This document shows, in pieces, positions 4,961-62,663 of a DNA stretch of 64,000 bases. Each line of letters opens with the position of its first letter. Position 1 is the first letter of the stretch. The notes below the pieces were generated by a model. It was not told where the DNA came from. It was given only the letters and a program-made list of their open reading frames with translations, and did no database searches. The DNA is from an uncultured Fimbriimonadaceae bacterium (lineage in GTDB: Bacteria > Armatimonadota > Fimbriimonadia > Fimbriimonadales > Fimbriimonadaceae). The DNA is taken from contig CAYVHL010000001.1 in the NCBI GenBank assembly GCA_964451255.1, positions 1,161,252 through 1,225,251 on the forward strand, in the 5' to 3' direction. Position numbers and translations under genes: made by a program.

Positions 4961-5704
4961 GTGACTGACCAGCATATGGTCTTGACGCCGGAGAAGGTCG
5001 TCGTCTCTTATCGGCTGGCCAGCCTGGGCACCAGGATCATGGCGCACATCATCGACGTGGTCATCGCGATCATGGTGTTCTACGTCCTAGCCATCGGGGC
5101 TGCCTTCGTCTTCCAAGGAGCACCGGAGCTGACTTGGGTCATCCTTGCCGCCATGGCCGCCTTCGGACTCTACGCGTATTTTGCGTTCCAAGAAGGCTTC
5201 TGGGGTGGGCAGACGATCGGCAAGCGCCTCATGAACATCCGTGTGATCATGGTCGACGGGACGCCGATCACCTTTCCCGCGGCGATCTATCGCAACCTCC
5301 TGCGTGTCGGCGATTTTCTGCCGACGTTCTATCTCGCCGGGTTCTTGTCCATATTCACCAACCCCCGGTCACAAAGGATCGGGGACATCGTCGCGGGAAC
5401 GGTCGTCGTGCACGAGCCCCGCAACCTCTACACGTTTACCCCCGCACCCCACCGGTACGGGGTGCACCGGCTGGAAGACACGGTCGGTGACCTGCGCAAA
5501 ATGACACTCCAAGAGTACTTTGCGATCAAGCGTCTGTGCGACCGCTTTCCCGAGCTACCCGCCCAGACTCAAGCTGAGAGCCTCCGTGACATTTGGTTTC
5601 CTTTTGCCTCCAAGGTCGGTATCGAGCCTGTCCCTAACGTCCATCCCTTGTATCAGATGGAGGCCGCGGTCATGAAGTACGGGCGTATGCACAAGCTCGT
5701 GTGA
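4961..5704 (+). CDS. RDD family membrane protein
   Basis: 247 aa with a GTG start preceded by AGGA. Hydrophobic N-terminal RDD-type domain (RIMAHIIDVVIAIMVFYVL...RIGDIVAGTVVV). An alternative ATG lies at 4976. Confidence 0.8.
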   Translation: MTDQHMVLTPEKVVVSYRLASLGTRIMAHIIDVVIAIMVFYVLAIGAAFVFQGAPELTWVILAAMAAFGLYAYFAFQEGFWGGQTIGKRLMNIRVIMVDGTPITFPAAIYRNLLRVGDFLPTFYLAGFLSIFTNPRSQRIGDIVAGTVVVHEPRNLYTFTPAPHRYGVHRLEDTVGDLRKMTLQEYFAIKRLCDRFPELPAQTQAESLRDIWFPFASKVGIEPVPNVHPLYQMEAAVMKYGRMHKLV

Positions 5705-48407: not shown

Positions 48408-49727
48408 TCAACCCAGCCCGGTCAAAGCCCCGTCGCCGCAGTAGTCGCGGTTGCCAAAGGACTTCACGTCGTGTCCGAACCCCTGGGCCAAGGCCATGAG
48501 CAAGCGGTTGTGGGGGACCCTGTCGTACTGTAGAGACCGACCGGTATTGAACCCTAGTCCCCCGCCGACCATGACGAACGGGATGTTGTCCAGTGTGTGG
48601 GAATTGCCCTGCCCAAGCTCGTTCGTCCACAGGACGGTCGTGTGGTCGAGCATCGATCCGTCGCCACCCGGCTCGGGCGTCTCCGACAGCCGTTTGGCCA
48701 AGTAGGCTAGTTGCTCGCAGTACCACTTGTTGATCTTGGTGAGTTTTTCTTGCGAGTCGGCGTCACTGTCGGGTTTGTGGGAGAGATCGTGCTGGCCTTC
48801 CTTGATGTCGAGCCAGGTGAAGCGGGCCTGTCCGACGGAGTTCGTGTATTGCAACGTCGCTACCCGGGTGGCGTCTTCTTGGAACGCGCTGACCATTAGG
48901 TCGATCTGAAGCTTGCTGAGCGTCGGGATGTTGTCGTTGTGACGTCGGACGCCCGGCTCGATCGGCGGCACCGCGTGGCCCACCGATGCCTTGCGGGCGG
49001 ACTGGATGTCTTGTTCAAGATCACGGACGGCGGTCAGATGCTGGTCGAGCAAGTGCTCGTCCTCCTTGGCGATGACACCCCTGACCTTGTTGATGTCCTC
49101 CCTCAAGTCGTCTAGGACGCTACTGAGAACTTCGCGGCCCTTCATCTGGCCGTGGATCTTGTTGAACATCAAATAGGGGTCGTCGACCGGGGCGACGGGC
49201 CGGTTCGGCCCCGCATAGACCATACGTGTCCAAGTGTCCGCATGGTCGGGGACCATGACTCCGAACTCCAACGAACCGAATCGCGTCCGGGTCTCCGGTG
49301 ACTTCTGTAAGAAGTCCTTGATCTCTTGGTCGATCGATATGCCGCTCGACCATCCGGCTGGCGTGTCGGAGCCGCCTTGCACGTTGCCAGGGAAGAGTTC
49401 GATGCCCGTCAACAAGCAGCCGATGCCCCGCATATGGCCGTCTCCGTCTCCCCGGATGCGGTCGCAGACGCCTTTCAAGACCAGCGTCTTGTCCTTGAAC
49501 GGGGCAAGGGGCGTCAAGCTCTCTTTGAGGTTGAACGCGGATCCCGCTTGATCGGGCCAAAAAGTGTCAGGCACGATTCCGTCGGGGCTGAATATGATCA
49601 CCAGTCGCTGCTTCCGCTTGGCAGTACCAAACGTCGCCCCTAGGCTAGGCAATCCCAGCAGGTATGGCGTCGCCACCGCTCCGATCCCCAGGTTTTTCAA
49701 GACCTGTCTGCGTGTGGTTTCTCTCAT
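48408..49727 (-). CDS. DUF1552 domain protein (Tat-signal)
   Basis: 439 aa. N-terminal [22 protein letters not shown]. Its start overlaps the stop of the upstream DUF1592-type gene (ATGA), the usual pairing. Confidence 0.88.
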
Positions 49728-52009
49728 GTCCGCCTCGAGGCCGTCGTCGCGATCTGCACCAACAGTTCCCTCATATTGTAGTCGGCATTCTTGAACTTGG
49801 TGACCAAGTCGGACAACGCCGTCTGCCCATAAGCGCGGACCGGCTCCTTGGTGATGTACTGGAACAGTTTTTCCACGAACGCGGCCTGGGCCTCGTCGCT
49901 GGTCGCCAGATAGGCGGCAAGATCGCCGGCGTTCTTGAACATGACCGTCGTACCGGCCTTTGTCTTGTAGTGTCCGGATGTGTCGACCGGCTTGCCGTTG
50001 TCGGACTTCCGCACCCTGCCGATCGCGTCGTACTCTTCAAAGGTGAAGCCGATCGGGTTGATGAGCGCATGGCAAGAGCTGCACGGGGTGTTCTTGGTCT
50101 GTAGCGCAACCCGCTCGCGGGTGGTCAGGTTCGGGTGCAGGCTCGCCGCGGCCGGGGCGGTAGCGACGGGCGGCGGCGCGAGGACGCGGCCCAGCATGTT
50201 CCTTACGACCAAGACCCCTCGGTGGATGGGCGAGCTTCCGTCCAGATAGGCATACCGCGCCATCACGTAGGGCTGGGTCAACAGGCCGGATCGGCCCGGG
50301 GCCCGCAAAGCTTGAAACGGCGCTCCAGCAGGCAAGCCGCCTCCATAGACTTTGGCCAGACGCCCGTTCCAGTACACCTTGTCGCTGAGCATCATCTCGC
50401 GGTAGTCAGCCTTGGGCCCCCACGCGACCTCCCTAAGGAACAGATCCAGGGAAGTCCGCAGGTCGCCGACCGTGGACTCGTCGAAGCCGGGGAACTTCTT
50501 GCTATCTTTGACGACGTCGGGGATCTCGTCAAGCCTTAGCCAGTGCATCAGGAAGTCTCGAAACTTGCTCAACGCGCGGGGGTCGTCGGCCATCCGACGG
50601 GCCTGCTTCTCGACAGCCCCCCTGTCTTTGAGCTCCCCTGCCGCCGCCGCGCGAAGCAGCTCCGGGTCGGGCAGGCTGTCCCACAGGGCGAACGAGAGGT
50701 CGGCGGCGTTCTTGTACGGATCGTCCGAGGAACCGATCTCGCGGTATAGGAACCGGGGAGACATCAGCGCCAAGACGACGGCACGCTTGATCGAAGCCGA
50801 CAGATCCGGTGAGTTCGCGAACTGCTTGTCTATGTAGCGCCTTTCCGTCTCCGCATCAAGGGGTTGCCGGAAGGCTCGCACGACGAACTGCTTGGCCAAG
50901 GCCTTCGCTTCTTGGGGGTCTTTCAGTTGATCGTCTTTAGCCGACCGGATGACTTGGTCGGCCACTTCGACGGCGGCACGGCCCAGCGCCTCGTCCCACT
51001 GCGGGCTGATCGAGCTGCCCCGCGCGTATCCGGTGCTGCTGTCGTCGGCCGGAAACGCGGTCTGCACGACATAGGTCGGGTCGTTGCCAGACGTTGACAG
51101 ATAGACCGACGGGATCACTTCGTCGGCCCCTTTGGGTGGCCTCCACAACAAGCGGATGAACGCCGGGGTGGCCTCGGTCTTGTTCAGCTTCTCGTCTTGT
51201 ACGCCCTGGATCCACTTCTTGAACTCGACATACACCGGATAGGCCCGGCCAGCCAGCATGCTGACCGTGGCCCTGAACTCTGTCTGGTTGCCTGAGCGGA
51301 CCAAGGCGTCGACGGTGGGGACAGGACTGCCGTTGAAGTAGAGGGCGGCCGCTTGGTCGGTCTCCAAGATCAGGTCGAAGTCGCCGGTGTCTGGAGCTAC
51401 AATGGCTCCGCTCCAGGTCACGAGGTAAGCCTTTGCGTCCACGTCGCCGGGTTCTGGCCCCGCCTTAGAAAAGTGGAAGTCCAGCTGGCGGTCGACACGC
51501 TCTATCTTGCGGTCCTTCTTCTTGGCTTCCTTCCCTGAGAAGTACTTCCCGTTAAGGCCGTTTTGTCCAGGGTTGACGGCGGCATGGTAGTCGCCGACAA
51601 GATCGGCGACGGCGTTCTTGAGTTGGCGGACGGTCAGTCGCTGCAACGCGATCCGGGCCGGCCGGTTCCTTTCTTGTGCGAGAGGCGAGTAGAACGCTTC
51701 GTACATGTACGCCGCCACGGCCCTGGCTTCAGCAACCGAGGCATGTCTTGGCCCTGGCGGCATGTTCTTAGCGATGAAGGCGCCCAGCTCCTCTTGGGTG
51801 AGCTTGCCGGCCAAGGGGCCGGAATAGCCCGGCCCGCCCGCGCCTGCCTCACCATGGCAAGGGGCGCATGTCTTTGCGAAGAGTCCCTTGCCCGTTAGGA
51901 ACGCCTTGGACTGTGGCGGGTCTTGCCGGCCCGGCACGGCCAGAGCGACGACGAGTGGCGCCACACTAAGAGCGGTGACTGTCAGCCGTCGCCAATCCGT
52001 CCTCACCAT
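49724..52009 (-). CDS. multi-domain DUF1592/DUF1595/DUF1587/DUF1588/DUF1585-type protein with CxxCH motifs
   Basis: 761 aa. Signal peptide, heme-binding-type CAPCHGE near the N-terminus and [13 protein letters not shown] near the C-terminus. Confidence 0.88.
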
Positions 52010-52604
52010 TCACCCCTTCGTCCTAGGGTACTCGCATTCAATGCCGTTTCGACCTGGCATTGATGCCGTCCCGGAACTGGCCCGAAAGACACTGACATTA
52101 GGACTTTGTCCCAAAATTGCGCACGTTGTGTATCCATGAGTGGCAAACGCCTGTCAAAGTAACGCTCCTTCCCCGAACAGGGAAAGAATCACAAAGGACG
52201 TGACGATGGACAGGCAAACCATGAAATCAAGGTGCGCGCTTTGACGCGACCTGCCGCCACCGTCTGACGAGCCGATCCTCCACCCGAGGCCCCGCCCGTC
52301 AGACCGACGAGGCGAAGGGCGCGACCGGCTTCCGGCCGCAAAGCACCGCACACCACACCCAATCGACCACATGGTGGCGCCCCGCGTGCCCCGTGTGACG
52401 ACCAGCATTCCGTCCGGCGGACGCGCCCGGACGGTCGACTCGCTGAGGCCCGGGCGGGCCGCGAAGGACGGTTATCGTTCATACCGAAACCCACTGTGAA
52501 AGGTGGATGGCGAAAGCCTCTCCGTCCTCACTTTTGCCCGCCCGACAGGCCTTGGCCAGCAAGAAGTCTTTCGTAGTCCAGACAACGAAGACAGTAGAAG
52601 ATTT

Positions 52605-52741
52605 GGCCTTTCGGGCCGAGGTGAACGGGTTATCGCGCCGGGGGTTCGAATCCCTCCTGGCAAGGACGGCTTCCCAGCTTGACTTGCCAGTAGCTCAGGG
52701 GTAGAGCACGAACGGCCGTCACGGCACTTGCCCGAAGGGCC
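52605..52741 (+). ncRNA. YrlA-class bacterial Y RNA candidate (permuted tRNA-like domain on a bulged stem)
   Basis: Base pairs read directly from the sequence. T arm 52640-52656 with loop TTCGAAT. 7-bp closed acceptor-like stem CTGGCAA (52657-52663) / TTGCCAG (52684-52690). TA at the U8/A9 positions. D arm GCTC-AGGGGTA-GAGC (52693-52707). Anticodon-stem equivalent 52709-52713 pairs with 52629-52635. A 7-bp helix with a bulged A (52621-52628 / 52716-52722). A 12-bp helix 52605-52616 / 52730-52741. It lies 50 nt upstream of rsr on the same strand. The true 5' and 3' ends are unknown. Confidence 0.7.
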
Positions 52742-52791
52742 CCACACATGCGGGAAACTGCAAGACAAGCAACTGAAGGAGAAAACAGGAC

Positions 52792-54363
52792 ATGAGGTTC
52801 ACCAGGCACTTCGCCGTAAAGAAGACATCACAGTCCCGGCCCGTGCCGGGAAAGGGACAGGCCGCCAACTCAGCGGGCGGCTTCGTGTTCGAGGTCGACG
52901 AGTGGAAACTGCTCGACCGATTTCTGACACTGGGCACCGAGGGGGGCACCTACTACATCAGCGAGCAGGACTTGACCATGGAGCAGGCGCAGAACGCGTT
53001 GGCCCTCGTCAAGAGCCAGGGCGAGAAGGTCGTCGAAAGGGTCGCCCAGGTCAGCCGCTCGGGGAGATCCCCTAAGGCCGACCCAGGGTTGTTCGTTCTC
53101 GCGATGGCCGCCTCGTTCGGGGAACTCGAGACCCGACGCGCGGCGTTCGCCGCGTTGCCCAAGGTCGCGCGCACCGGCACGCATCTGTTCCAGTTCGTCG
53201 CCGAGTGCGAGCGACTGCGTGGATGGGGCAGGGCCATGCGCACGGCCGTCGGGCGTTGGTACAACGAAGCCGACGCGGGCGACGTCGCCTACCAGGCGAT
53301 GAAGTACCAGCAGCGCGGCGGCTGGGGCCATCGCGACCTGTTGCGCCTCGCCCACCCTAAGCCGGTGGACGAAGCCCACAAGGTGGTCTACAAGTGGATC
53401 GTCGACGGCGAGTTGATCGGGCCGCAGCCTCGCATCGAAGCCTTTGAGCGCTTGAAGAGGACGGCAGAGGCGACCGAGGCGGCCAGGCTCGTCAGCGAGT
53501 TCGACCTGCCCCGCGAATGTGTTCCCAGCCAGTTGCTCAACAGCCCTGAAGTGTGGGACGCCCTGCTGGCCAATATGCCGATGACGGCGATGGTCCGCAA
53601 CCTGGGCAATATGTCCAAGGTCGGGCTGCTTACCGTCGGGTCGGACGCCTCGAAGGAGGTCGTGCGTCGGCTGGGTGACCTCAAGAGGCTGAAGGCGGCG
53701 CGTGTCCACCCGGTCGCGTTGCTGATGGCGCTCAAGGTCTATCGGCAGGGGCACGGGTTGCGCGGCTCGGGCCAATGGGAAGCCGTCCCCGCTGTGGTCG
53801 ACGCCCTGGACGCCGCCTTCTACAAGGCGTTTGAGACCGTCGAGCCAAGCGGGAAGCGGTTCGTGCTGGGCATCGACGTCTCCAGTTCAATGGCATGGTC
53901 GACCGTGGCGGGGACGCCGCTCACCGCATGCGAGGCGGCGACCACGATGGCCATGGTGACGCTGGCGGCCGAGGAAGAAGTGAGCCCGATGGCGTTCGCG
54001 GACGAGTTCCGCAAGGTACCGCTGTCGAAGCGCATGAGCCTGGACGACGCGATGCGCCACACCCAGGCACGGAACTTCGGCGGCACCGACTGCGCGTTGC
54101 CCATGTTGTGGGCGATGAAGAACAAGGTCAAGGCGGACGCCTTCGTCGTCTACACGGACAACGAGACTTGGTTCGGTGAGACCCACCCGTTCCAAGCGTT
54201 ACAAGAATATCGACAGAGGACCGGGATCCCGGCCAAGTTGGCTGTCGTGGGGATGTGTGCCAACCGGTTCACCGTCGCCGACCCGTCCGACCCCGGCATG
54301 CTGGACTTCGTCGGCTTCGACGCCGCGGTTCCTCAAGCTCTACGGGAGTTTGTGACCGCATAG
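52792..54363 (+). CDS. rsr: Ro 60-kDa autoantigen orthologue (Rsr; TROVE + vWA domains)
   Basis: 523 aa. N-terminal TROVE region (GGFVFEVDEWKLLDRFLTLGTEGGTYYISEQ) and a C-terminal vWA with MIDAS motif GIDVSSSM. GAAGGAG RBS upstream. Confidence 0.92.
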   Translation: MRFTRHFAVKKTSQSRPVPGKGQAANSAGGFVFEVDEWKLLDRFLTLGTEGGTYYISEQDLTMEQAQNALALVKSQGEKVVERVAQVSRSGRSPKADPGLFVLAMAASFGELETRRAAFAALPKVARTGTHLFQFVAECERLRGWGRAMRTAVGRWYNEADAGDVAYQAMKYQQRGGWGHRDLLRLAHPKPVDEAHKVVYKWIVDGELIGPQPRIEAFERLKRTAEATEAARLVSEFDLPRECVPSQLLNSPEVWDALLANMPMTAMVRNLGNMSKVGLLTVGSDASKEVVRRLGDLKRLKAARVHPVALLMALKVYRQGHGLRGSGQWEAVPAVVDALDAAFYKAFETVEPSGKRFVLGIDVSSSMAWSTVAGTPLTACEAATTMAMVTLAAEEEVSPMAFADEFRKVPLSKRMSLDDAMRHTQARNFGGTDCALPMLWAMKNKVKADAFVVYTDNETWFGETHPFQALQEYRQRTGIPAKLAVVGMCANRFTVADPSDPGMLDFVGFDAAVPQALREFVTA

Positions 54364-54367
54364 GCGA

Positions 54368-54398
54368 GGTGGCCGTCAGCGAGACGCTTTCGGCCACC
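54368..54398 (+). terminator. hairpin just after the rsr stop (weak terminator candidate)
   Basis: GGTGGCCG (54368-54375) / CGGCCACC (54391-54398), an 8-bp stem with a 15-nt loop and no U-tract. Confidence 0.3.
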
Positions 54399-54569: not shown

Positions 54570-55214
54570 ATGACACGCACTGCACTTGTTCTCGTGCTAG
54601 CAACGGCCGGGTTTGCCTGTCAGGCAAACGCAGTCGAATTGCTGAGCAACGGTGGCTTCGAAAGCGAACCCAATTGGGGTGGCGGGATCAGCCATGACGG
54701 CGGCTATACGGCGTTCACGGGCACCGACATCCCTGGCTGGATCGTCGCGGACGGTCATGCCGCCACCATCCATAACCACGTCTACCCGTGGATCAGCGGT
54801 TCGTACAGCCTGAACACAGACGGGGAGGGCTACAACAGCCACAACGTTGACATCTACCAAGACTTCACACCTGACGCGGGCTCCCTCAACACGCTGACCT
54901 ACGCCTGGAAGGTCTGGTACATCAACGCGGTTCCGCGATTGGACGTCTCGGTGACCGACCTGACCGACTCGAGCGTGCTCTATCACGGCAACTTCGGCCA
55001 ACCGGACTTACTTCTCCACAACGAGTCGTCGAATTTTGTCGGCAACGGCCACACCCTGCGCCTGGAGATCAAAGAGTCTCCCGAGACCGGTCTGAACGAC
55101 AACGCGTTCATTGCCGATGACTTCAGCGTCCAGTCGGAAGCTGTCCCCGAACCGTTTTCGATCGTAGGTCTGGCTCTGGCCGGCGCCTTGGCCGCAAGGC
55201 GTCGTAAAGCTTGA
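54570..55214 (+). CDS. PEP-CTERM sorting-domain protein with DUF642/CBM-like N-terminal domain
   Basis: ORF 54255..55214 trimmed to the ATG at 54570 (MTRTALVLVLATAGFACQANA, GAGAGAGG upstream). ELLSNGGFE motif and C-terminal VPEPFSIVGLALAGALAARRRKA. Confidence 0.8.
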   Translation: MTRTALVLVLATAGFACQANAVELLSNGGFESEPNWGGGISHDGGYTAFTGTDIPGWIVADGHAATIHNHVYPWISGSYSLNTDGEGYNSHNVDIYQDFTPDAGSLNTLTYAWKVWYINAVPRLDVSVTDLTDSSVLYHGNFGQPDLLLHNESSNFVGNGHTLRLEIKESPETGLNDNAFIADDFSVQSEAVPEPFSIVGLALAGALAARRRKA

Positions 55215-59407: not shown

Positions 59408-59426
59408 TTGCACTTTTTAAGTGCAA
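59408..59426. repeat. AT-rich inverted repeat TTGCACTT-TTT-AAGTGCAA (terminator or operator candidate)
   Basis: Perfect 8-bp arms, 14 nt after the GNAT stop and about 100 nt upstream of the next gene. Confidence 0.5.
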
Positions 59427-59522
59427 GTTGTGCCTGGTGATCTTGCCTGGTCAGGTTCAAAATGTTTGCCGTCAACAACTGGCTCAGTTTGGTTTAGCCT
59501 CAAAACTGGCTACACTGAACGT

Positions 59523-62500
59523 ATGCAGTTCAGACTGGGACGGGTCGCGACGTTGGCGGGAAGCGCGGGTGCCCTCGCAGTTGCCGTCGCAGTACCCACG
59601 AGCCAGCGGGCGAAGGCTCCGAAGGTCGAGTTCAACCGCGACGTCCGGGTGATCCTGTCCAACTGCATGGCGTGCCACGGCCCGAGTTCAGGGGAGGGCA
59701 TGGGCGGCCTCCGTCTCGACGCGTTCGACACCGCCACCAAGACCCTGCCCGACGGCAAGCGGGCGATCGTGCCGGGGAAGCCTGGCGAGAGCGAGCTCCT
59801 GAAACGGGTCGAATCGAAAGACCCTGGCTACATGATGCCGCCTCCGGAGTCGCACAAGACGGTCTCCAAGGATCAGATCCAAACCTTGCGCGACTGGATC
59901 GCGGAAGGCGCCCAGTACAAGGAGCATTGGGCGTTCGTCAAACCCGTCCGCCCCGCCTTGCCCGAGGTCCAGGACAAGAACTGGCCCAAGAACGACATCG
60001 ACTACTTTGTCCTCGCCAACCTTGAGAGCCACGGCCTGAAACCGGAGCCCGAGGCCGACAGGGCGACCCTGATCCGTCGCGTGTCCCTGGACTTGACCGG
60101 GCTTCCGCCGACCCCGGGCGAAGTCGAAGCTTTCGTCAACGACCAGTCGCCGAAGGCATACGAAAAGGTCGTCGACCGACTGCTCGCCTCGCCCCGGTAC
60201 GGGGAACGCATGGCGATGGATTGGATGGACTACTCCCGCTATGCGGACAGCAACGGCTATCAAGCGGACTACGAGCGATACCAGTCGCGATGGCGCGATT
60301 GGGTGATCGACGCCTTCAACAAGAACATGCCGTACGACGAGTTCACGGTGGACCAGATCGCCGGCGACCTCCTGCCCCACGCGACGATGGAACAGCGGCT
60401 GGCCACCGGGTTCAACCGCAACCACCGGATCAACACGGAAGGCGGGGTCATCCCCGAAGAGTGGCGGGTCGAGACGGTCATCGACCGCGTCGACACGACG
60501 TCGGCCATCTGGCTCGGCCTCACGGTCGGCTGCGCCCGGTGCCACGACCACAAGTTCGACCCGGTGAGCCAGAAGGACTTCTATCGGCTCTTCGCGTTTT
60601 TCAACAATGTCCCCGAATCCGGCACGGGCGTCGAACGGCCAGTCAACCATCCGCCGGTCATGGACGCGCCGACTCCGGCCCAGACGGCGAAAATGGCCCA
60701 TTACGACCGGGCGATCAAGGAACTGGGCGCCTGGTTGGACAAGGAAGCAGCCAAGCGAGAGGATGTCGCCGCCGATTGGCGGCCAAAGAACCTCCTCGGG
60801 GCCGTCACAAACGGCCTGGTGGAACGGTTCGCTTTCACCAAGGGCGGTAGCAAGGCGGGGTCGAACAATGGCGGCGTGGCCTATGAGCCGGGACGGGCGA
60901 CGGGGGCCGTCGTCACTGACGACAAGTCGTTCGTCGATCTCGGAGGCGTCGCCGACTTTGAGCGCGACCAACCGTTCAGCTTTTCGCTGTGGATCAAGCC
61001 CAAGAACGGTGAGGGCTCCCCCCTGTCCCGCATGGATTCGAACGACGCTTTCCGGGGTTGGGAGTGTTCGCTCAGCGACGGCCGACCGCAAGCCCATATC
61101 ATCAACAAATGGCCGGACAACGCCGTCAAGGTCTCCGCGAAAGACGTAAAGCTACCTAACGACCGGTGGAGCCACCTCGTCGTCACATACGACGGTTCGT
61201 CCAAGGCTGCCGGAATGAAGATGTACGTGGACGGCCAGCCGGTCGCCGTCAACGTCGACAACGACAACCTGAACCAGACCGTTCGAACCAAGGTCACGAC
61301 CAAGGTCGGCCGACGTACGAACAGCGAGACCTTCACCGGCGCCGTGGACGACGTCGCTATCTTCAACCGAGTGTTGACGCCGGAAGAAGCCGCCACCTTA
61401 GCCTCCACGTCTCCCGCTCTACCGTTGGTCTCGATCGACAAGGGTAAGCGCACTCCTAGCCAGCGGCTCGACTTGGCCCGCTACTACTGTCTGGCCCATG
61501 ACGACCAGTTCGCGGCTCGTGACAGGCAACGGGCGGACGTGGCCGCGCGAAGGGAAGAACTCAAAGCGGAGATTCCTAACGTGATGGTCATGGAAGAGAT
61601 GCCGAAGCCGCGTGACTGCTACGTCCTTGTTCGGGGCCAATACGACAAGCACGGTGAGAAAGTGACGGCCGGGCTACCGTCATTCCTGCCGCCGATGCCC
61701 AAGGGGCAGCCTGAGAACCGGCTCGGTCTGGCGAGGTGGATCGTCTCCCCGGACAACCCGCTCACAGCCCGTGTCACCGTCAACCGCATGTGGGCGCGTT
61801 TCTTCGGGGCCGGGATCGTGGGGACGATCGAAGATTTCGGCACAAGAGCGGACTACCCGAACAACCCTGAACTCCTTGATTGGCTTGCGACCGAGTTCCT
61901 GCGGCTCAAATGGGATCTCAAGGGGATGATGAAGGAGATCGCCATGAGCGCCTCCTATCGCCAATCCTCGAACATCACCGCCGAGAAACTCGAGGCAGAC
62001 CCTGAGAATAAGATGATCTGTCGTGGGCCACGGTTCAGGTTGCAAGGCGAGGTCATTCGCGACCAGGCCCTTTTTGTCAGCGGGCTGCTGGTCGAAAAGC
62101 TAGGCGGCCCGTCCGTCCGGCCCTATATGCCGCCTGGCATCTGGGACGAGACAAACATGTATGGGAACCTCCGCGATTACAAGCACGACATCGGGCCCGG
62201 GCTCTATCGCCGAAGCCTTTACACGATCTGGAAGCGCACCGCCGCCCCGCCAAACATGCTCTTGTTCGACGTGCCGTCACGCGAGACCTGCCGGATGATG
62301 CGGGCGAGGACGGACACGCCGCTCCAGGCCCTTACTCTGATGAACGACGAGACGTACATCGAAGCGGCACGTGTTCTGGCGCAGAGAATGCTCAAGGAAG
62401 GGGGGTCGACGCCGGAGTCGCGCCTGACCTACGGGTTCCAACTGGTCATGTGCCGCAAACCGACGGACGCGGAGGTCAAGTTGCTCGCCGACGGAGTGGC

Positions 62501-62663
62501 TAAGAGGGCCGAGAAATTCCGGGCAGACCCTGCCGCAGAAGCCGGCATCCTCGGTGAAGGCGTCTCCCCAGTCCCCGACAAGTTGGACAAGTCTGAGCTT
62601 GCCGCTTACACCATAGCGGCCAGCGCGTTGCTCAACACCGACGAAGCGATCACAAAGGAGTAA
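59523..62663 (+). CDS. PSCyt1/DUF1549/LamG/DUF1553 (PSD1) multi-domain protein
   Basis: ORF 59421..62663 trimmed to the ATG at 59523 (MQFRLGRVATLAGSAGALAVAVA signal). CMACHG (CxxCH) and CARCHDHKFDP motifs. LamG-like insert (WSHLVVTYDG...VDDVAIFNRVLT). Confidence 0.9.
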   Translation: MQFRLGRVATLAGSAGALAVAVAVPTSQRAKAPKVEFNRDVRVILSNCMACHGPSSGEGMGGLRLDAFDTATKTLPDGKRAIVPGKPGESELLKRVESKDPGYMMPPPESHKTVSKDQIQTLRDWIAEGAQYKEHWAFVKPVRPALPEVQDKNWPKNDIDYFVLANLESHGLKPEPEADRATLIRRVSLDLTGLPPTPGEVEAFVNDQSPKAYEKVVDRLLASPRYGERMAMDWMDYSRYADSNGYQADYERYQSRWRDWVIDAFNKNMPYDEFTVDQIAGDLLPHATMEQRLATGFNRNHRINTEGGVIPEEWRVETVIDRVDTTSAIWLGLTVGCARCHDHKFDPVSQKDFYRLFAFFNNVPESGTGVERPVNHPPVMDAPTPAQTAKMAHYDRAIKELGAWLDKEAAKREDVAADWRPKNLLGAVTNGLVERFAFTKGGSKAGSNNGGVAYEPGRATGAVVTDDKSFVDLGGVADFERDQPFSFSLWIKPKNGEGSPLSRMDSNDAFRGWECSLSDGRPQAHIINKWPDNAVKVSAKDVKLPNDRWSHLVVTYDGSSKAAGMKMYVDGQPVAVNVDNDNLNQTVRTKVTTKVGRRTNSETFTGAVDDVAIFNRVLTPEEAATLASTSPALPLVSIDKGKRTPSQRLDLARYYCLAHDDQFAARDRQRADVAARREELKAEIPNVMVMEEMPKPRDCYVLVRGQYDKHGEKVTAGLPSFLPPMPKGQPENRLGLARWIVSPDNPLTARVTVNRMWARFFGAGIVGTIEDFGTRADYPNNPELLDWLATEFLRLKWDLKGMMKEIAMSASYRQSSNITAEKLEADPENKMICRGPRFRLQGEVIRDQALFVSGLLVEKLGGPSVRPYMPPGIWDETNMYGNLRDYKHDIGPGLYRRSLYTIWKRTAAPPNMLLFDVPSRETCRMMRARTDTPLQALTLMNDETYIEAARVLAQRMLKEGGSTPESRLTYGFQLVMCRKPTDAEVKLLADGVAKRAEKFRADPAAEAGILGEGVSPVPDKLDKSELAAYTIAASALLNTDEAITKE

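What the first reader, a model, noticed from the sequence alone, without database searches (positions are those of the whole stretch)
52605..52741. Circularly permuted tRNA-like module on a bulged stem directly upstream of rsr: a YrlA-class Y RNA candidate
Fifty nt upstream of the Ro60 orthologue, on the same strand, all elements of a tRNA elbow occur, but in permuted order. The T arm is GGGGG-TTCGAAT-CCCTC (52640-52656). It abuts a 7-bp acceptor-like helix, CTGGCAA (52657-52663) / TTGCCAG (52684-52690), that is closed by an 18-20-nt loop instead of having free ends. Next come T-A at the U8/A9 positions (52691-52692) and a D arm GCTC-AGGGGTA-GAGC (52693-52707). An A occupies the position-26 equivalent. 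A 5-bp anticodon-stem equivalent follows, CGAAC (52709-52713) pairing with GTT..CG (52629-52631 and 52634-52635, with an AT bulge). The variable loop is CGCC. The nucleotides needed for tertiary contacts are all present: U8-A14, G15-C48, G18G19 with the T loop, and G53-C61. In place of an anticodon loop the helix continues. First comes a 7-bp stem with a single bulged A (52621-52628 / 52716-52722). An asymmetric internal loop follows, then a 12-bp stem GGCCTTTCGGGC / GCCCGAAGGGCC (52605-52616 / 52730-52741, one G-U). Bacterial Ro orthologues are known to be encoded next to Y RNAs, and the YrlA class contains exactly such a tRNA mimic (established by work on Deinococcus and Salmonella). Ordinary tRNA or gene finders would not annotate this instance, and it has not, to my knowledge, been described for this kind of lineage.
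Basis: partly seen in the sequence, partly recalled or inferred. Interest (0 to 1): 0.8.

Follow-up and report, generated by a model that had tools for sequence, protein, structure and literature searches.

The report
YrlA-type Y RNA upstream of rsr
The 137-nt stretch just upstream of the Ro60 (rsr) gene is a real but ordinary member of the known YrlA family of bacterial Y RNAs, a tRNA mimic on a Ro60-binding stem, and a second, shorter Y RNA candidate sits next to it.

Summary
Window 52605-52741 (+) carries a T arm, a closed acceptor-like stem-loop, U8/A9, a D arm and a long bulged stem, 50 nt upstream of a Ro60/Rsr gene (52792-54363).

It is far beyond chance. Rfam YrlA (RF02553) matches end to end (37.5 bits, E=1.4e-6), although below its gathering score of 69. 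A covariance model built only from 50 rsr-linked relatives gives one hit in the 64 kb, exactly here (73.8 bits, E=4e-17).

Across those relatives the helices covary: 95.5% of cells are paired and 20 of 27 pairs have compensatory changes. The tertiary 15-48 pair covaries as well (G-C 30, A-U 18, one exception).

However, the family, its permuted-tRNA description, its UA kink and its variable acceptor stem were published in 2014 and 2018 for at least 10 phyla. This is a new member of a known kind.

Extras:
- A second, shorter Y RNA candidate lies at 52447-52548.
- This subclass keeps both strands of a metazoan-like, bulged-C Ro-binding helix.
- Related rsr loci hold arrays of Y RNAs, including unpermuted, tRNA-ordered versions.

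No expression or binding data exist.

The parts
52605..52741 (+). Whole YrlA-type Y RNA candidate (137 nt as bounded by the basal helix; true ends unknown)
   Evidence: Rfam RF02553 full-length match at 52609-52740. R2 model without the window: 52604-52742, 73.8 bits, E=3.9e-17, the only hit in 64 kb.
52605..52616 (+). Basal stem, 5' strand (GGCCUUUCGGGC); pairs with 52730-52741
   Evidence: 12 canonical pairs. The inner 7 pairs correspond to family columns with compensatory changes. The outer 5 pairs are specific to the window.
52613..52620 (+). Putative Ro60-binding motif, 5' strand GGGC-C-GAG, with bulged C52617
   Evidence: Among 50 distinct relatives the bulged C is present in 49 and the following G in all 50. 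The motif resembles GGUCCGA, which X. laevis Ro60 contacts (Chen 2014). The published motif GNCGAAN0-1G is matched with one mismatch (GCCGAGG).
52621..52628 (+). Middle stem, 5' strand (GUGA-A-CGG; A52625 bulged); pairs with 52716-52722
   Evidence: All pairs canonical. Family columns 18-20 with 158-160 covary.
52629..52635 (+). Anticodon-stem equivalent, 3'-type strand, with YUAY motif UUAU (52630-52633) and UA kink (52631-52632); pairs with 52709-52713
   Evidence: GGUUAUC is nearly invariant in the family. The UA kink is described in the Salmonella YrlA structure.
52636..52639 (+). Variable loop CGCC; C52639 is the position-48 equivalent
   Evidence: The Levitt pair G15 (52698) with C48 (52639) is present. 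The family shows G-C in 30, A-U in 18 and one exception.
52640..52656 (+). T arm: 5-bp stem and loop UUCGAAU
   Evidence: The T stem is 100% paired in 50 relatives, and 3 of its 5 pairs show compensatory changes.
52657..52690 (+). Closed acceptor-like stem-loop: 8 bp, a 3x3 internal loop, 4 bp and a UCCC loop; 34 nt
   Evidence: All four modelled acceptor-like pairs covary in the family. This is the longest of 51 family members, the others being 14-27 nt.
52691..52692 (+). UA linker (equivalents of tRNA U8 and A9)
   Evidence: U is present in all 50 distinct relatives and A in 47.
52693..52708 (+). D arm GCUC-AGGGGUA-GAGC plus A26 equivalent
   Evidence: The D stem is 99% paired in the family. 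A14 is invariant.
52709..52722 (+). 3' strands of the anticodon-stem equivalent (52709-52713) and of the middle stem (52716-52722)
52727..52733 (+). Putative Ro60-binding helix, 3' strand CUUGCCC
   Evidence: Among 50 distinct relatives: C in 46, U in 43, U in 42, G in 39.
52730..52741 (+). Basal stem, 3' strand (GCCCGAAGGGCC)
52792..54363 (+). rsr (Ro60 orthologue, 523 aa), preceded by AGGAG at 52777-52781
   Evidence: Pfam TROVE at 1.5e-41 and vWA_Ro60 at 5.5e-66. NCBIfam RNA-bind_Rsr at 557 bits, E=3e-167, below the equivalog cutoff of 900.
52447..52548 (+). Second, shorter Y RNA candidate (YrlB-like). It has the same Ro-binding module, GGGCGGGCCGCGAAGGACGGUUAUCG...CCGUCCUCACUUUUGCCCGCCC, and three small hairpins instead of the tRNA-like core.
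   Evidence: Fold z-score -4.3, with 0 of 200 shuffles as stable. R1 with filters off gives 14.2 bits, second best in 3.5 kb. R3, a short-Y model built from 22 non-window RNAs, gives this as its only hit in 64 kb at 24.6 bits, E about 9e-4. All 132 R3 hits in 567 kb of rsr loci, down to 21.7 bits, are on the rsr strand.
54368..54398 (+). Hairpin GGUGGCCG-N15-CGGCCACC, 5 nt after the rsr stop; probable 3' end of the transcription unit
   Evidence: Read from the sequence; not tested further.

Best explanation
Window 52605-52741 encodes a YrlA-type bacterial Y RNA, a non-coding partner RNA of the Rsr/Ro60 protein encoded 50 nt downstream.

Shown here: the sequence and structure signature, its statistical significance, its family-wide conservation and covariation, and its linkage to rsr on the same strand.

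Inferred from published work on Salmonella, M. smegmatis, D. radiodurans and Xenopus:
1. The RNA is co-transcribed with rsr, together with a second short Y RNA candidate at 52447-52548, and is then cut out of the transcript. No terminator-like site separates the three features.
2. The paired 5' and 3' ends form the Ro60-binding module. This is the helix GGGC-C-GA / UUGCCC with bulged C52617, which docks on the outer surface of the Rsr ring.
3. The distal module folds into a tRNA-like L shape. Present are the T-loop/D-loop elbow, U8-A14, G15-C48 and G53-C61 equivalents. There is a closed 34-nt acceptor-like arm, and there is no anticodon loop or CCA end.
4. This module is probably modified by tRNA enzymes (TruB, Dus).
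5. The tRNA-like module acts as the effector-binding or stabilising end of the RNA. It would tether Rsr to another factor (PNPase in D. radiodurans and Salmonella; the elbow-binding partner of YrlA is still unknown) or gate substrate access to the Rsr cavity.
For: Rfam YrlA matches full length at 37.5 bits, E=1.4e-6.

Model R2, built from 50 relatives without the window, gives one hit in 64 kb at 52604-52742: 73.8 bits, E=3.9e-17.

Linkage to rsr:
- All 200 R1 hits (E<=1e-3) in 567 kb of rsr loci lie on the rsr strand. About 60 are full-length YrlA-like elements. The rest are short Y-like elements and some tandem-tRNA junctions, which are known false positives and are themselves co-oriented with rsr.
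- By my reading of the locus tables, 48 of the 50 full-length relatives lie upstream of rsr and 2 downstream.

Covariation in 50 distinct sequences:
- 95.5% of cells are paired, against 73.5% in shuffles and 31-48% in slid controls.
- 20 of 27 pairs have changes on both sides.
- The covariation score is 0.595, against 0.184 shuffled and 0.07-0.11 slid.

The tertiary Levitt pair covaries: G-C 30, A-U 18, one exception, Fisher p=1.6e-12, uncorrected for phylogeny.

The window's tRNA-like fold is fully canonical and within 5 kcal/mol of the MFE.

Both strands of the Ro-binding helix and the bulged C are nearly invariant.

rsr is intact, with TROVE and Ro60-vWA domains.

Published definition and biology of YrlA.
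Against: - There is no transcript, end-mapping, Rsr-binding or modification data for this or any close relative.
- The Rfam gathering score is not reached (37.5 against 69).
- The published 5' motif GNCGAAN0-1G has one mismatch (GCCGAGG).
- Plain MFE folding does not recover the T and D arms. This is also common for real tRNAs.
- The nearest Rsr relatives are only 57-63% identical. Covariation is therefore shown for the family, not for this lineage's own orthologues.
- The covariation counts come from an alignment fitted to the model, and metagenomic sequences are not independent.
- No sigma-70-like promoter was found upstream.
Confidence: 0.88

Rival explanations
1. The element is only a structured 5' leader of the rsr mRNA. 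It would act in cis, for example through autoregulation by Rsr binding its own leader, and would never be released as a separate RNA.
For: It ends 50 nt before the rsr start codon on the same strand. No terminator-like site lies between them and no promoter-like site was detected. Co-transcription is therefore likely.
Against: Homologous elements lie at very different distances from rsr, from 57 nt to more than 1.3 kb. They often occur as arrays of 2-9 copies, and in some loci they lie downstream of rsr. That pattern fits trans-acting RNAs better than a leader. Characterised YrlA and Yrn RNAs are processed from polycistronic transcripts and accumulate as Rsr-bound RNAs.
Confidence: 0.07
2. It is a decaying remnant of two adjacent tRNA genes: the T arm of the first, a spacer, and the D arm of the second. 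This is the known false-positive class for YrlA models, and such a remnant would have no function.
For: The T and D arms are tRNA-like. Tandem-tRNA junctions do score with the model (hits covering model positions 46-105 in tRNA arrays). Chen et al. warn about this artefact.
Against: ARAGORN finds no tRNA in the whole window, and the Rfam tRNA model gives no hit with E<=10 around the site. The match covers the full model, including the Ro-binding 5' and 3' strands and the YUAY motif. The flanking helices pair perfectly and covary in relatives.
Confidence: 0.02
3. It is a YrlA that is opened in its acceptor-like arm, as in M. smegmatis. RNase P would cut 5' of U52684, and the 5' half would be trimmed and could receive CCA. 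The active form would then be a two-piece, tRNA-ended RNA rather than a closed, permuted one.
For: The acceptor-like helix has the tRNA-like 7 bp (8 with G52664-C52683) and an unusually large 20-nt loop. M. smegmatis YrlA, with a 7-bp stem, is cleaved by RNase P and CCA-tailed. Relatives include versions with free acceptor ends.
Against: Most YrlA RNAs are considered poor RNase P substrates. No CCA or discriminator-like sequence follows A52663. The loop can fold into a further hairpin that extends the arm. There are no cleavage data.
Confidence: 0.12

Closest known systems
Salmonella Typhimurium YrlA (Rfam RF02553; tRNA-like domain structure PDB 6CU1, as cited in bioRxiv 10.1101/312249)
   Same: The module order is the same: 5' Ro-binding strand, YUAY with UA kink, variable region, T arm, closed acceptor-like stem-loop, UA, D arm, 3' strand. 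The same tertiary-contact nucleotides are present. It lies next to rsr on the same strand.
   Different: The window RNA scores only 37.5 bits against the family model (gathering score 69). Its acceptor-like arm is 34 nt with 8+4 bp, whereas Salmonella has 6 bp. Its Ro-binding helix keeps both strands and a bulged C, whereas only the 5' strand is recognisable in Salmonella. There is no rtcBA operon here; the next gene encodes a PEP-CTERM protein.
Mycobacterium smegmatis YrlA
   Same: It lies upstream of rsr with a second Y RNA (YrlB) nearby, and it has a 7-bp acceptor-like stem.
   Different: [quoted passage not shown] Nothing is known here.
Cyanobacterial and deltaproteobacterial YrlA with long acceptor stems (e.g. 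Stanieria cyanosphaera; Chen et al. 2014)
   Same: Extended acceptor-like arm.
Deinococcus radiodurans Yrn1 (Rfam RF01053) and metazoan Y RNAs / nematode sbRNAs (RF00019, RF01656)
   Same: The Ro-binding helix is two-stranded with a bulged C: 5' GG(G/U)CCGA and 3' CUUG(C/A)CC, followed by GGUUAUC. The consensus lines of RF00019 and RF01656 show the same motifs.
   Different: Those RNAs lack the complete, YrlA-ordered T, acceptor-like and D module. Neither model hits the window at E<=10.
Circularly permuted tRNA genes of red algae and archaea
   Same: The acceptor stem is closed by a loop, and the ends lie in the anticodon-stem region.
   Different: Those are processed into real, decoding tRNAs. 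Here there is no anticodon loop and no CCA end.

Membership tests
YrlA (Chen et al. 2014; Rfam RF02553) | Encoded within 4 kb of a Ro60/TROVE gene on the same strand | tested here: met
   It ends 50 nt upstream of rsr on the + strand.
YrlA (Chen et al. 2014; Rfam RF02553) | Score at or above the Rfam gathering threshold (69 bits) | tested here: not met
   37.5 bits, full length, E=1.4e-6 in a 701-nt search; nothing at gathering thresholds. All tested rsr-linked relatives of this subclass also score below the threshold, at 34-49 bits.
YrlA (Chen et al. 2014; Rfam RF02553) | 5' motif GNCGAAN0-1G (putative Ro60 contact) | tested here: inconclusive
   The window has GCCGAGG, one mismatch (A to G). 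The subclass consensus GCCGAAG fits, and other members also vary at this position.
YrlA (Chen et al. 2014; Rfam RF02553) | Conserved YUAY before the variable region (UA kink) | tested here: met
   UUAU at 52630-52633. GGUUAUC is nearly invariant in the family.
YrlA (Chen et al. 2014; Rfam RF02553) | T stem-loop 5' of the D stem-loop, separated by a closed acceptor-like stem-loop and a UA dinucleotide | tested here: met
   T arm 52640-52656, acceptor-like arm 52657-52690, UA 52691-52692, D arm 52693-52707. Aligned in register by RF02553 and by R2. The helices covary in 50 relatives.
YrlA (Chen et al. 2014; Rfam RF02553) | tRNA tertiary-contact nucleotides, including a covarying Levitt 15-48 pair | tested here: met
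   The window has equivalents of U8, A14, G15/C48, G18G19, U54U55C56, A58 and G53-C61. In the family the 15-48 pair is G-C in 30, A-U in 18, with one exception.
YrlA (Chen et al. 2014; Rfam RF02553) | Binds Rsr in vivo; carries pseudouridine-55 and dihydrouridine made by TruB and DusA | not testable with these tools
   Needs Rsr immunoprecipitation and modification mapping.
rsr-linked YrlA subclass defined here (models R1/R2) | Full-length match to a model built from relatives only | tested here: met
   R2: 73.8 bits, E=3.9e-17, model positions 1-141 of 141, the only hit in the window.
Ro60/Rsr protein | TROVE ring domain plus Ro60-type vWA domain | tested here: met
   Pfam PF05731 at 1.5e-41 and PF25045 at 5.5e-66. 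NCBIfam Rsr equivalog at 557 bits, below its cutoff of 900, so it is a divergent orthologue.
Canonical tRNA or tandem-tRNA junction | Cloverleaf with anticodon arm and free acceptor ends, detectable by ARAGORN or Rfam tRNA | tested here: not met
   ARAGORN finds 0 genes in 64 kb. There is no RF00005 hit at E<=10 in 52300-53000.
Short (YrlB-like / metazoan-like) Y RNA, for the second element at 52447-52548 | Ro-binding helix of both strands plus GGUUAUC, next to rsr, without T and D arms | tested here: met
   R3, built without the window, gives this as the only hit in 64 kb: 24.6 bits, E about 9e-4. All 132 R3 hits in rsr loci are on the rsr strand. Fold z-score -4.3. The score is weak, and there is no orthologue covariation.

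The most novel reading that the evidence does not exclude
The window RNA may belong to an undescribed subclass of rsr-linked Y RNAs that falls below Rfam thresholds and bridges lineages previously treated as independent.

In this subclass a complete YrlA-type tRNA mimic is fused to the two-stranded, bulged-C Ro-binding helix typical of Deinococcus and metazoan Y RNAs. The same loci carry tandem arrays of two further kinds of element.
- Short Y RNAs, some of which score above the gathering threshold of a nematode sbRNA family.
- Unpermuted, tRNA-ordered versions, in which the Ro-binding helix replaces the anticodon loop and a covarying 7-bp acceptor stem has free ends.

If this reading holds, YrlA arose by tandem duplication and permutation of a tRNA-shaped Y RNA, and bacterial and animal Y RNAs form one family.
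Probability: 0.35. Interest if true: 0.55.

Novelty: new member of a known kind. Interest (0 to 1): 0.3.

Why it matters
For the window itself the value is correct annotation. There is an rsr operon with one firm and one probable Y RNA that standard pipelines (Rfam gathering thresholds, tRNA finders) leave blank. The genome's gene content looks like Planctomycetota or another PVC lineage.

More broadly, the Rfam YrlA threshold misses every member of this rsr-linked subclass that I tested against it. The related loci collected here contain material that could test the published idea that Y RNAs derive from dimeric tRNA transcripts. That material consists of arrays of Y RNAs, short Y RNAs resembling animal ones, and tRNA-ordered versions.

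Tried and rejected
- Rfam at gathering thresholds on the whole window gave nothing. ARAGORN also gave nothing.
- Plain MFE folding does not reproduce the T and D arms, so it was not used as evidence for the cloverleaf. The explicit structure was evaluated instead.
- The sigma-70 promoter scan found no site upstream, and the terminator-like sites it found are all on the other strand.
- Synteny: tblastn of eight window neighbours against all loci matched only the two Logan contigs that are identical to the window. The rsr and Y RNA cassette therefore sits in an unrelated context elsewhere.
- Organism identity could not be established.
  - Exact-sequence look-ups show the proteins are in NCBI on a 1.26-Mb contig, but return no name.
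  - The best Rsr matches among named genomes are Armatimonadota MAGs at 57-62%.
  - Neighbouring PSCyt, PSD and DUF1552 proteins suggest Planctomycetota or another PVC lineage.
  - The lineage-novelty claim is therefore untestable here.
- The supplementary species tables of Chen et al. 2014 are not held. A search for papers with Y RNA, Ro60 and Planctomycetes found none.
- The metazoan Y_RNA, nematode sbRNA and Deinococcus Y RNA models do not hit the window at E<=10. The resemblance of the Ro-binding helix is at motif level only for the window's own RNAs.
- RNAalifold on MAFFT alignments recovered only part of the middle stems, because of indels. I used manually specified structures and model-based alignments, which lean towards the model.

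Full report
**1. The observation**

- T arm GGGGG-UUCGAAU-CCCUC (52640-52656).
- A 7-bp acceptor-like helix, 52657-52663 with 52684-52690, closed by a 20-nt loop.
- UA (52691-52692).
- D arm GCUC-AGGGGUA-GAGC (52693-52707), then A52708.
- A 5-bp anticodon-stem equivalent.
- A 7-bp stem with one bulged A.
- A 12-bp basal stem.

Written as one structure, all 48 pairs are canonical. The structure costs -61.6 kcal/mol against an MFE of -66.4. The unconstrained MFE does not form the T and D arms, so I did not use it as evidence either way.

The ORF that starts 50 nt downstream (52792-54363) has TROVE and Ro60-vWA domains. It matches NCBIfam's Rsr model at 557 bits, below the equivalog cutoff of 900. 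ARAGORN finds no tRNA in the 64 kb, and Rfam at gathering thresholds finds nothing.

**2. Is it more than chance?**

With permissive thresholds, Rfam's YrlA model (RF02553) aligns over its whole length to 52609-52740. The score is 37.5 bits and E=1.4e-6 for the 701 nt searched. The T, acceptor-like and D helices are in register, and the only large departure is a 22-nt insertion in the acceptor-like loop. The score is below the family's gathering score of 69.

For an independent test I collected rsr loci: 26 from genomes and 80 from metagenomes. I then proceeded in three steps.
1. I built model R1 from 22 upstream elements.
2. I used R1 to align 50 full-length elements that do not include the window.
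3. I built model R2 from those alone.

R2 gives a single hit in the window on either strand: 52604-52742, 73.8 bits, E=3.9e-17, covering the full model.

**3. Family evidence**

R1 finds 200 matches (E<=1e-3) in 567 kb of rsr loci, all on the rsr strand.
- About 60 are full-length YrlA-like elements.
- The rest are short Y-like elements and some tandem-tRNA junctions. The junctions are the false-positive class noted by Chen et al..

By my reading of the locus tables, 48 of the 50 full-length relatives lie upstream of rsr and 2 downstream.

On 50 distinct full-length sequences:
- 95.5% of cells form standard pairs, against 73.5% in column shuffles and 31-48% when partners are slid.
- 20 of 27 pairs show changes on both sides.
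- The covariation score is 0.595, against 0.184 shuffled and 0.07-0.11 slid.

The basal stem, middle stem, T stem, acceptor-like stem and D stem all contribute. The tertiary Levitt pair covaries too: G15-C48 in 30 sequences, A15-U48 in 18, one exception (uncorrected for phylogeny). The window has G-C.

Two caveats apply. The alignment was fitted to the model, and metagenomic sequences are related to each other.

**4. What it is**

All published defining features of YrlA are present.
- It lies on the same strand within 4 kb of rsr.
- It has the YUAY motif (UUAU 52630-52633), whose UA is the kink seen in the Salmonella structure.
- The T arm lies 5' of the D arm, with a closed acceptor-like stem-loop between them.
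- It has the UA linker.
- It has the tertiary-contact nucleotides.

The 5' motif GNCGAAN0-1G is matched with one mismatch (GCCGAGG).

The element is not a tandem-tRNA junction. There are no tRNA hits around it, and the match includes the Ro-binding strands.

It is unlikely to be merely an rsr leader. In relatives the elements sit from 57 nt to more than 1.3 kb from rsr, occur in arrays, and sometimes lie downstream of rsr.

**5. How it probably works (inferred, not shown here)**

- The RNA is co-transcribed with rsr and processed out of the transcript. No terminator-like site lies between the elements, and a hairpin follows the rsr stop at 54368-54398.
- The paired ends form the Ro60-binding helix: GGGC-C-GA (52613-52619, with C52617 bulged) against UUGCCC (52728-52733).
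  - Both strands and the bulged C are nearly invariant in 50 relatives.
  - The 5' strand resembles the GGUCCGA contacted by Xenopus Ro60.
- The distal module folds as a tRNA-like L. It is likely modified by TruB and Dus, and serves as the effector-binding or stabilising end.
- The effector for YrlA is unknown in any species.
- The 7-8-bp acceptor-like stem with a large loop leaves open RNase P cleavage, as in M. smegmatis.

**6. Particular features of this instance**

- Its acceptor-like arm, at 34 nt, is the longest of 51 members; the others are 14-27 nt. Published YrlAs of cyanobacteria and deltaproteobacteria also have long arms.
- Its variable region is short, like a class I tRNA. About a quarter of members share this.
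[quoted passage not shown] They argue from this for separate lineages. The present subclass combines a full YrlA module with the two-stranded helix.

**7. Second Y RNA in the window**

At 52447-52548 (+) the same Ro-binding module recurs: GGGCGGGCCGCGAAGGACGGUUAUCG ... CCGUCCUCACUUUUGCCCGCCC. It surrounds three small hairpins instead of a tRNA-like core.
- It folds well: z-score -4.3, with 0 of 200 shuffles as stable.
- It is the second-best R1 match in the region with filters off: 14.2 bits, E=0.0033.
- It is the only hit in 64 kb of model R3, built from 22 short rsr-linked RNAs from other loci: 24.6 bits, E about 9e-4.
- All 132 R3 hits in the rsr loci, down to 21.7 bits, are on the rsr strand, which argues for high specificity at this score.

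I regard it as a probable YrlB-like second Y RNA. This fits the published observation that every characterised species has at least two.

**8. Comparison with what is known, and novelty**

YrlA was described in 254 bacteria and 22 phages in 2014. By 2018 it was said to span at least 10 phyla, with a crystal structure and an explicit comparison to circularly permuted tRNAs. The finding is therefore a new, unannotated member of a known kind.

The claim of lineage novelty cannot be tested.
- The organism could not be named.
- Its PSCyt, PSD and DUF1552 genes suggest Planctomycetota or another PVC lineage.
- The nearest Rsr proteins are in Armatimonadota MAGs.
- The species tables of the 2014 paper are not held.

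**9. Side findings in related loci (outside the window)**

- **Arrays of Y-like elements precede rsr.** There are eight in L001, nine in L022 and three in Tautonia sociabilis L010.
- **Short Y RNAs resemble animal Y RNAs.** They match the nematode sbRNA family RF01656 above its gathering score (43.0 and 42.8 bits against 38). One also matches metazoan Y_RNA (25.7 bits). One element matches the Deinococcus Y RNA model at 41.7 bits, against a gathering score of 80.
- **Ten elements carry the same modules in normal tRNA order.**
  - They come from Tautonia, four Sorangium genomes, a Polyangiaceae MAG, an Armatimonadota MAG and three metagenome contigs.
  - Each has a 7-bp acceptor stem formed by the two ends, a D arm, a long arm ending in CUUGCCC-loop-GGGCCGA where the anticodon loop would be, UUAUC, a variable hairpin and a T arm.
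  - The acceptor stem covaries at 6 of its 7 positions, with no broken pair.
  - One element, L035, encodes ACCA after the stem.
  - In the papers I could search and read, I found no description of such unpermuted forms.
  - A tandem duplication of such a gene, read from one Ro strand to the next, would give exactly the YrlA order. This is a concrete version of the published dimeric-tRNA origin model. I did not take it further.

**10. Verdict**

Interest for the finding itself is low to moderate (0.3).

Noticed in passing
window 52447-52548 (+); extended stem possibly 52442-52557: A probable second, shorter Y RNA lies directly upstream of the YrlA. It has the same GGGCCG..GGUUAUC / CACUU(UU)GCCC module with three small hairpins in place of the tRNA-like core. 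Fold z-score is -4.3, and it is the only hit of the short-Y model R3 in 64 kb.
   Followed up: yes
window 52410-52435 and 52260-52306 (+): There is a perfect 8-bp hairpin, CCGTCCGG-N8-CCGGACGG, just upstream of the second Y RNA. Further upstream is a 47-nt hairpin (GUCUGACG...CGUCAGAC) containing GAGCCGA, which gives a weak R1 match (7.2 bits, E=0.2). Their meaning is unknown.
   Followed up: no
window 54368-54398 (+) and 54570-55214 (+): A GC-rich 8-bp hairpin lies 5 nt after the rsr stop codon, without a U-run. The next ORF is a PEP-CTERM / choice-of-anchor-C-like protein with no link to RNA repair. There is no rtcBA operon here, unlike Salmonella.
   Followed up: partly
window 48408-52009 (-) and 59421-62663 (+): These are Planctomycete-type PSCyt, PSD and DUF1552 gene sets, which suggest a Planctomycetota or other PVC genome. 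Yet the closest Rsr proteins among named genomes are in Armatimonadota MAGs (57-62%), and the flanking genes show no synteny with any other rsr locus.
   Followed up: partly
L010:2530-2651 (Tautonia sociabilis); L012, L014, L017 and L025 at about 5005-5128 (Sorangium); L018:4850-4975; L022:2655-2780; L035:1416-1541; L037:2281-2412; L073:4324-4447: These are tRNA-ordered (unpermuted) Y RNAs next to rsr. Each has a 7-bp acceptor stem made by the two ends, a D arm, a long arm ending in CUUGCCC-loop-GGGCCGA in place of the anticodon loop, UUAUC, a variable hairpin and a T arm. The acceptor stem covaries at 6 of 7 positions with no broken pair in 10 sequences. L035 encodes ACCA after the stem. They carry the same modules as YrlA, permuted back to tRNA order.
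   Followed up: partly
L042:2106-2176, L051:1179-1247, L057:108-177, L040:1495-1563, L019:4697-4769, L041:881-1023: Short rsr-linked bacterial Y RNAs score at or above the gathering threshold of the nematode sbRNA family RF01656 (43.0, 42.8, 38.6 and 38.6 bits against 38). The L019 element scores 33.9 bits on RF01656 and also matches metazoan Y_RNA RF00019 (25.7 bits). L041:881-1023 matches Deinococcus_Y_RNA RF01053 at 41.7 bits, against a gathering score of 80.
   Followed up: partly
L001:1494-2894, L022:1528-2931, L045:317-2442, L029:1407-2444: Tandem arrays of 6-9 Y-like elements lie upstream of rsr, all on the same strand. They mix YrlA-type, short and tRNA-ordered forms.
   Followed up: partly
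L006:839-2560 and 5160-5385 (Gaiellaceae MAG); similar in L009: rsr and its YrlA sit inside an array of 19 tRNA genes covering 19 different amino-acid specificities, all on the rsr strand.
   Followed up: no
L005 (contig binned as a Bathyarchaeota archaeon): The contig carries rsr, a YrlA (94 bits) and a short Y RNA. The neighbours look like a phage or mobile element: an ArdC-N domain, an HNH plus NUMOD3 endonuclease and a radical SAM protein. It is probably a viral or mis-binned contig rather than an archaeal Ro60 locus.
   Followed up: partly
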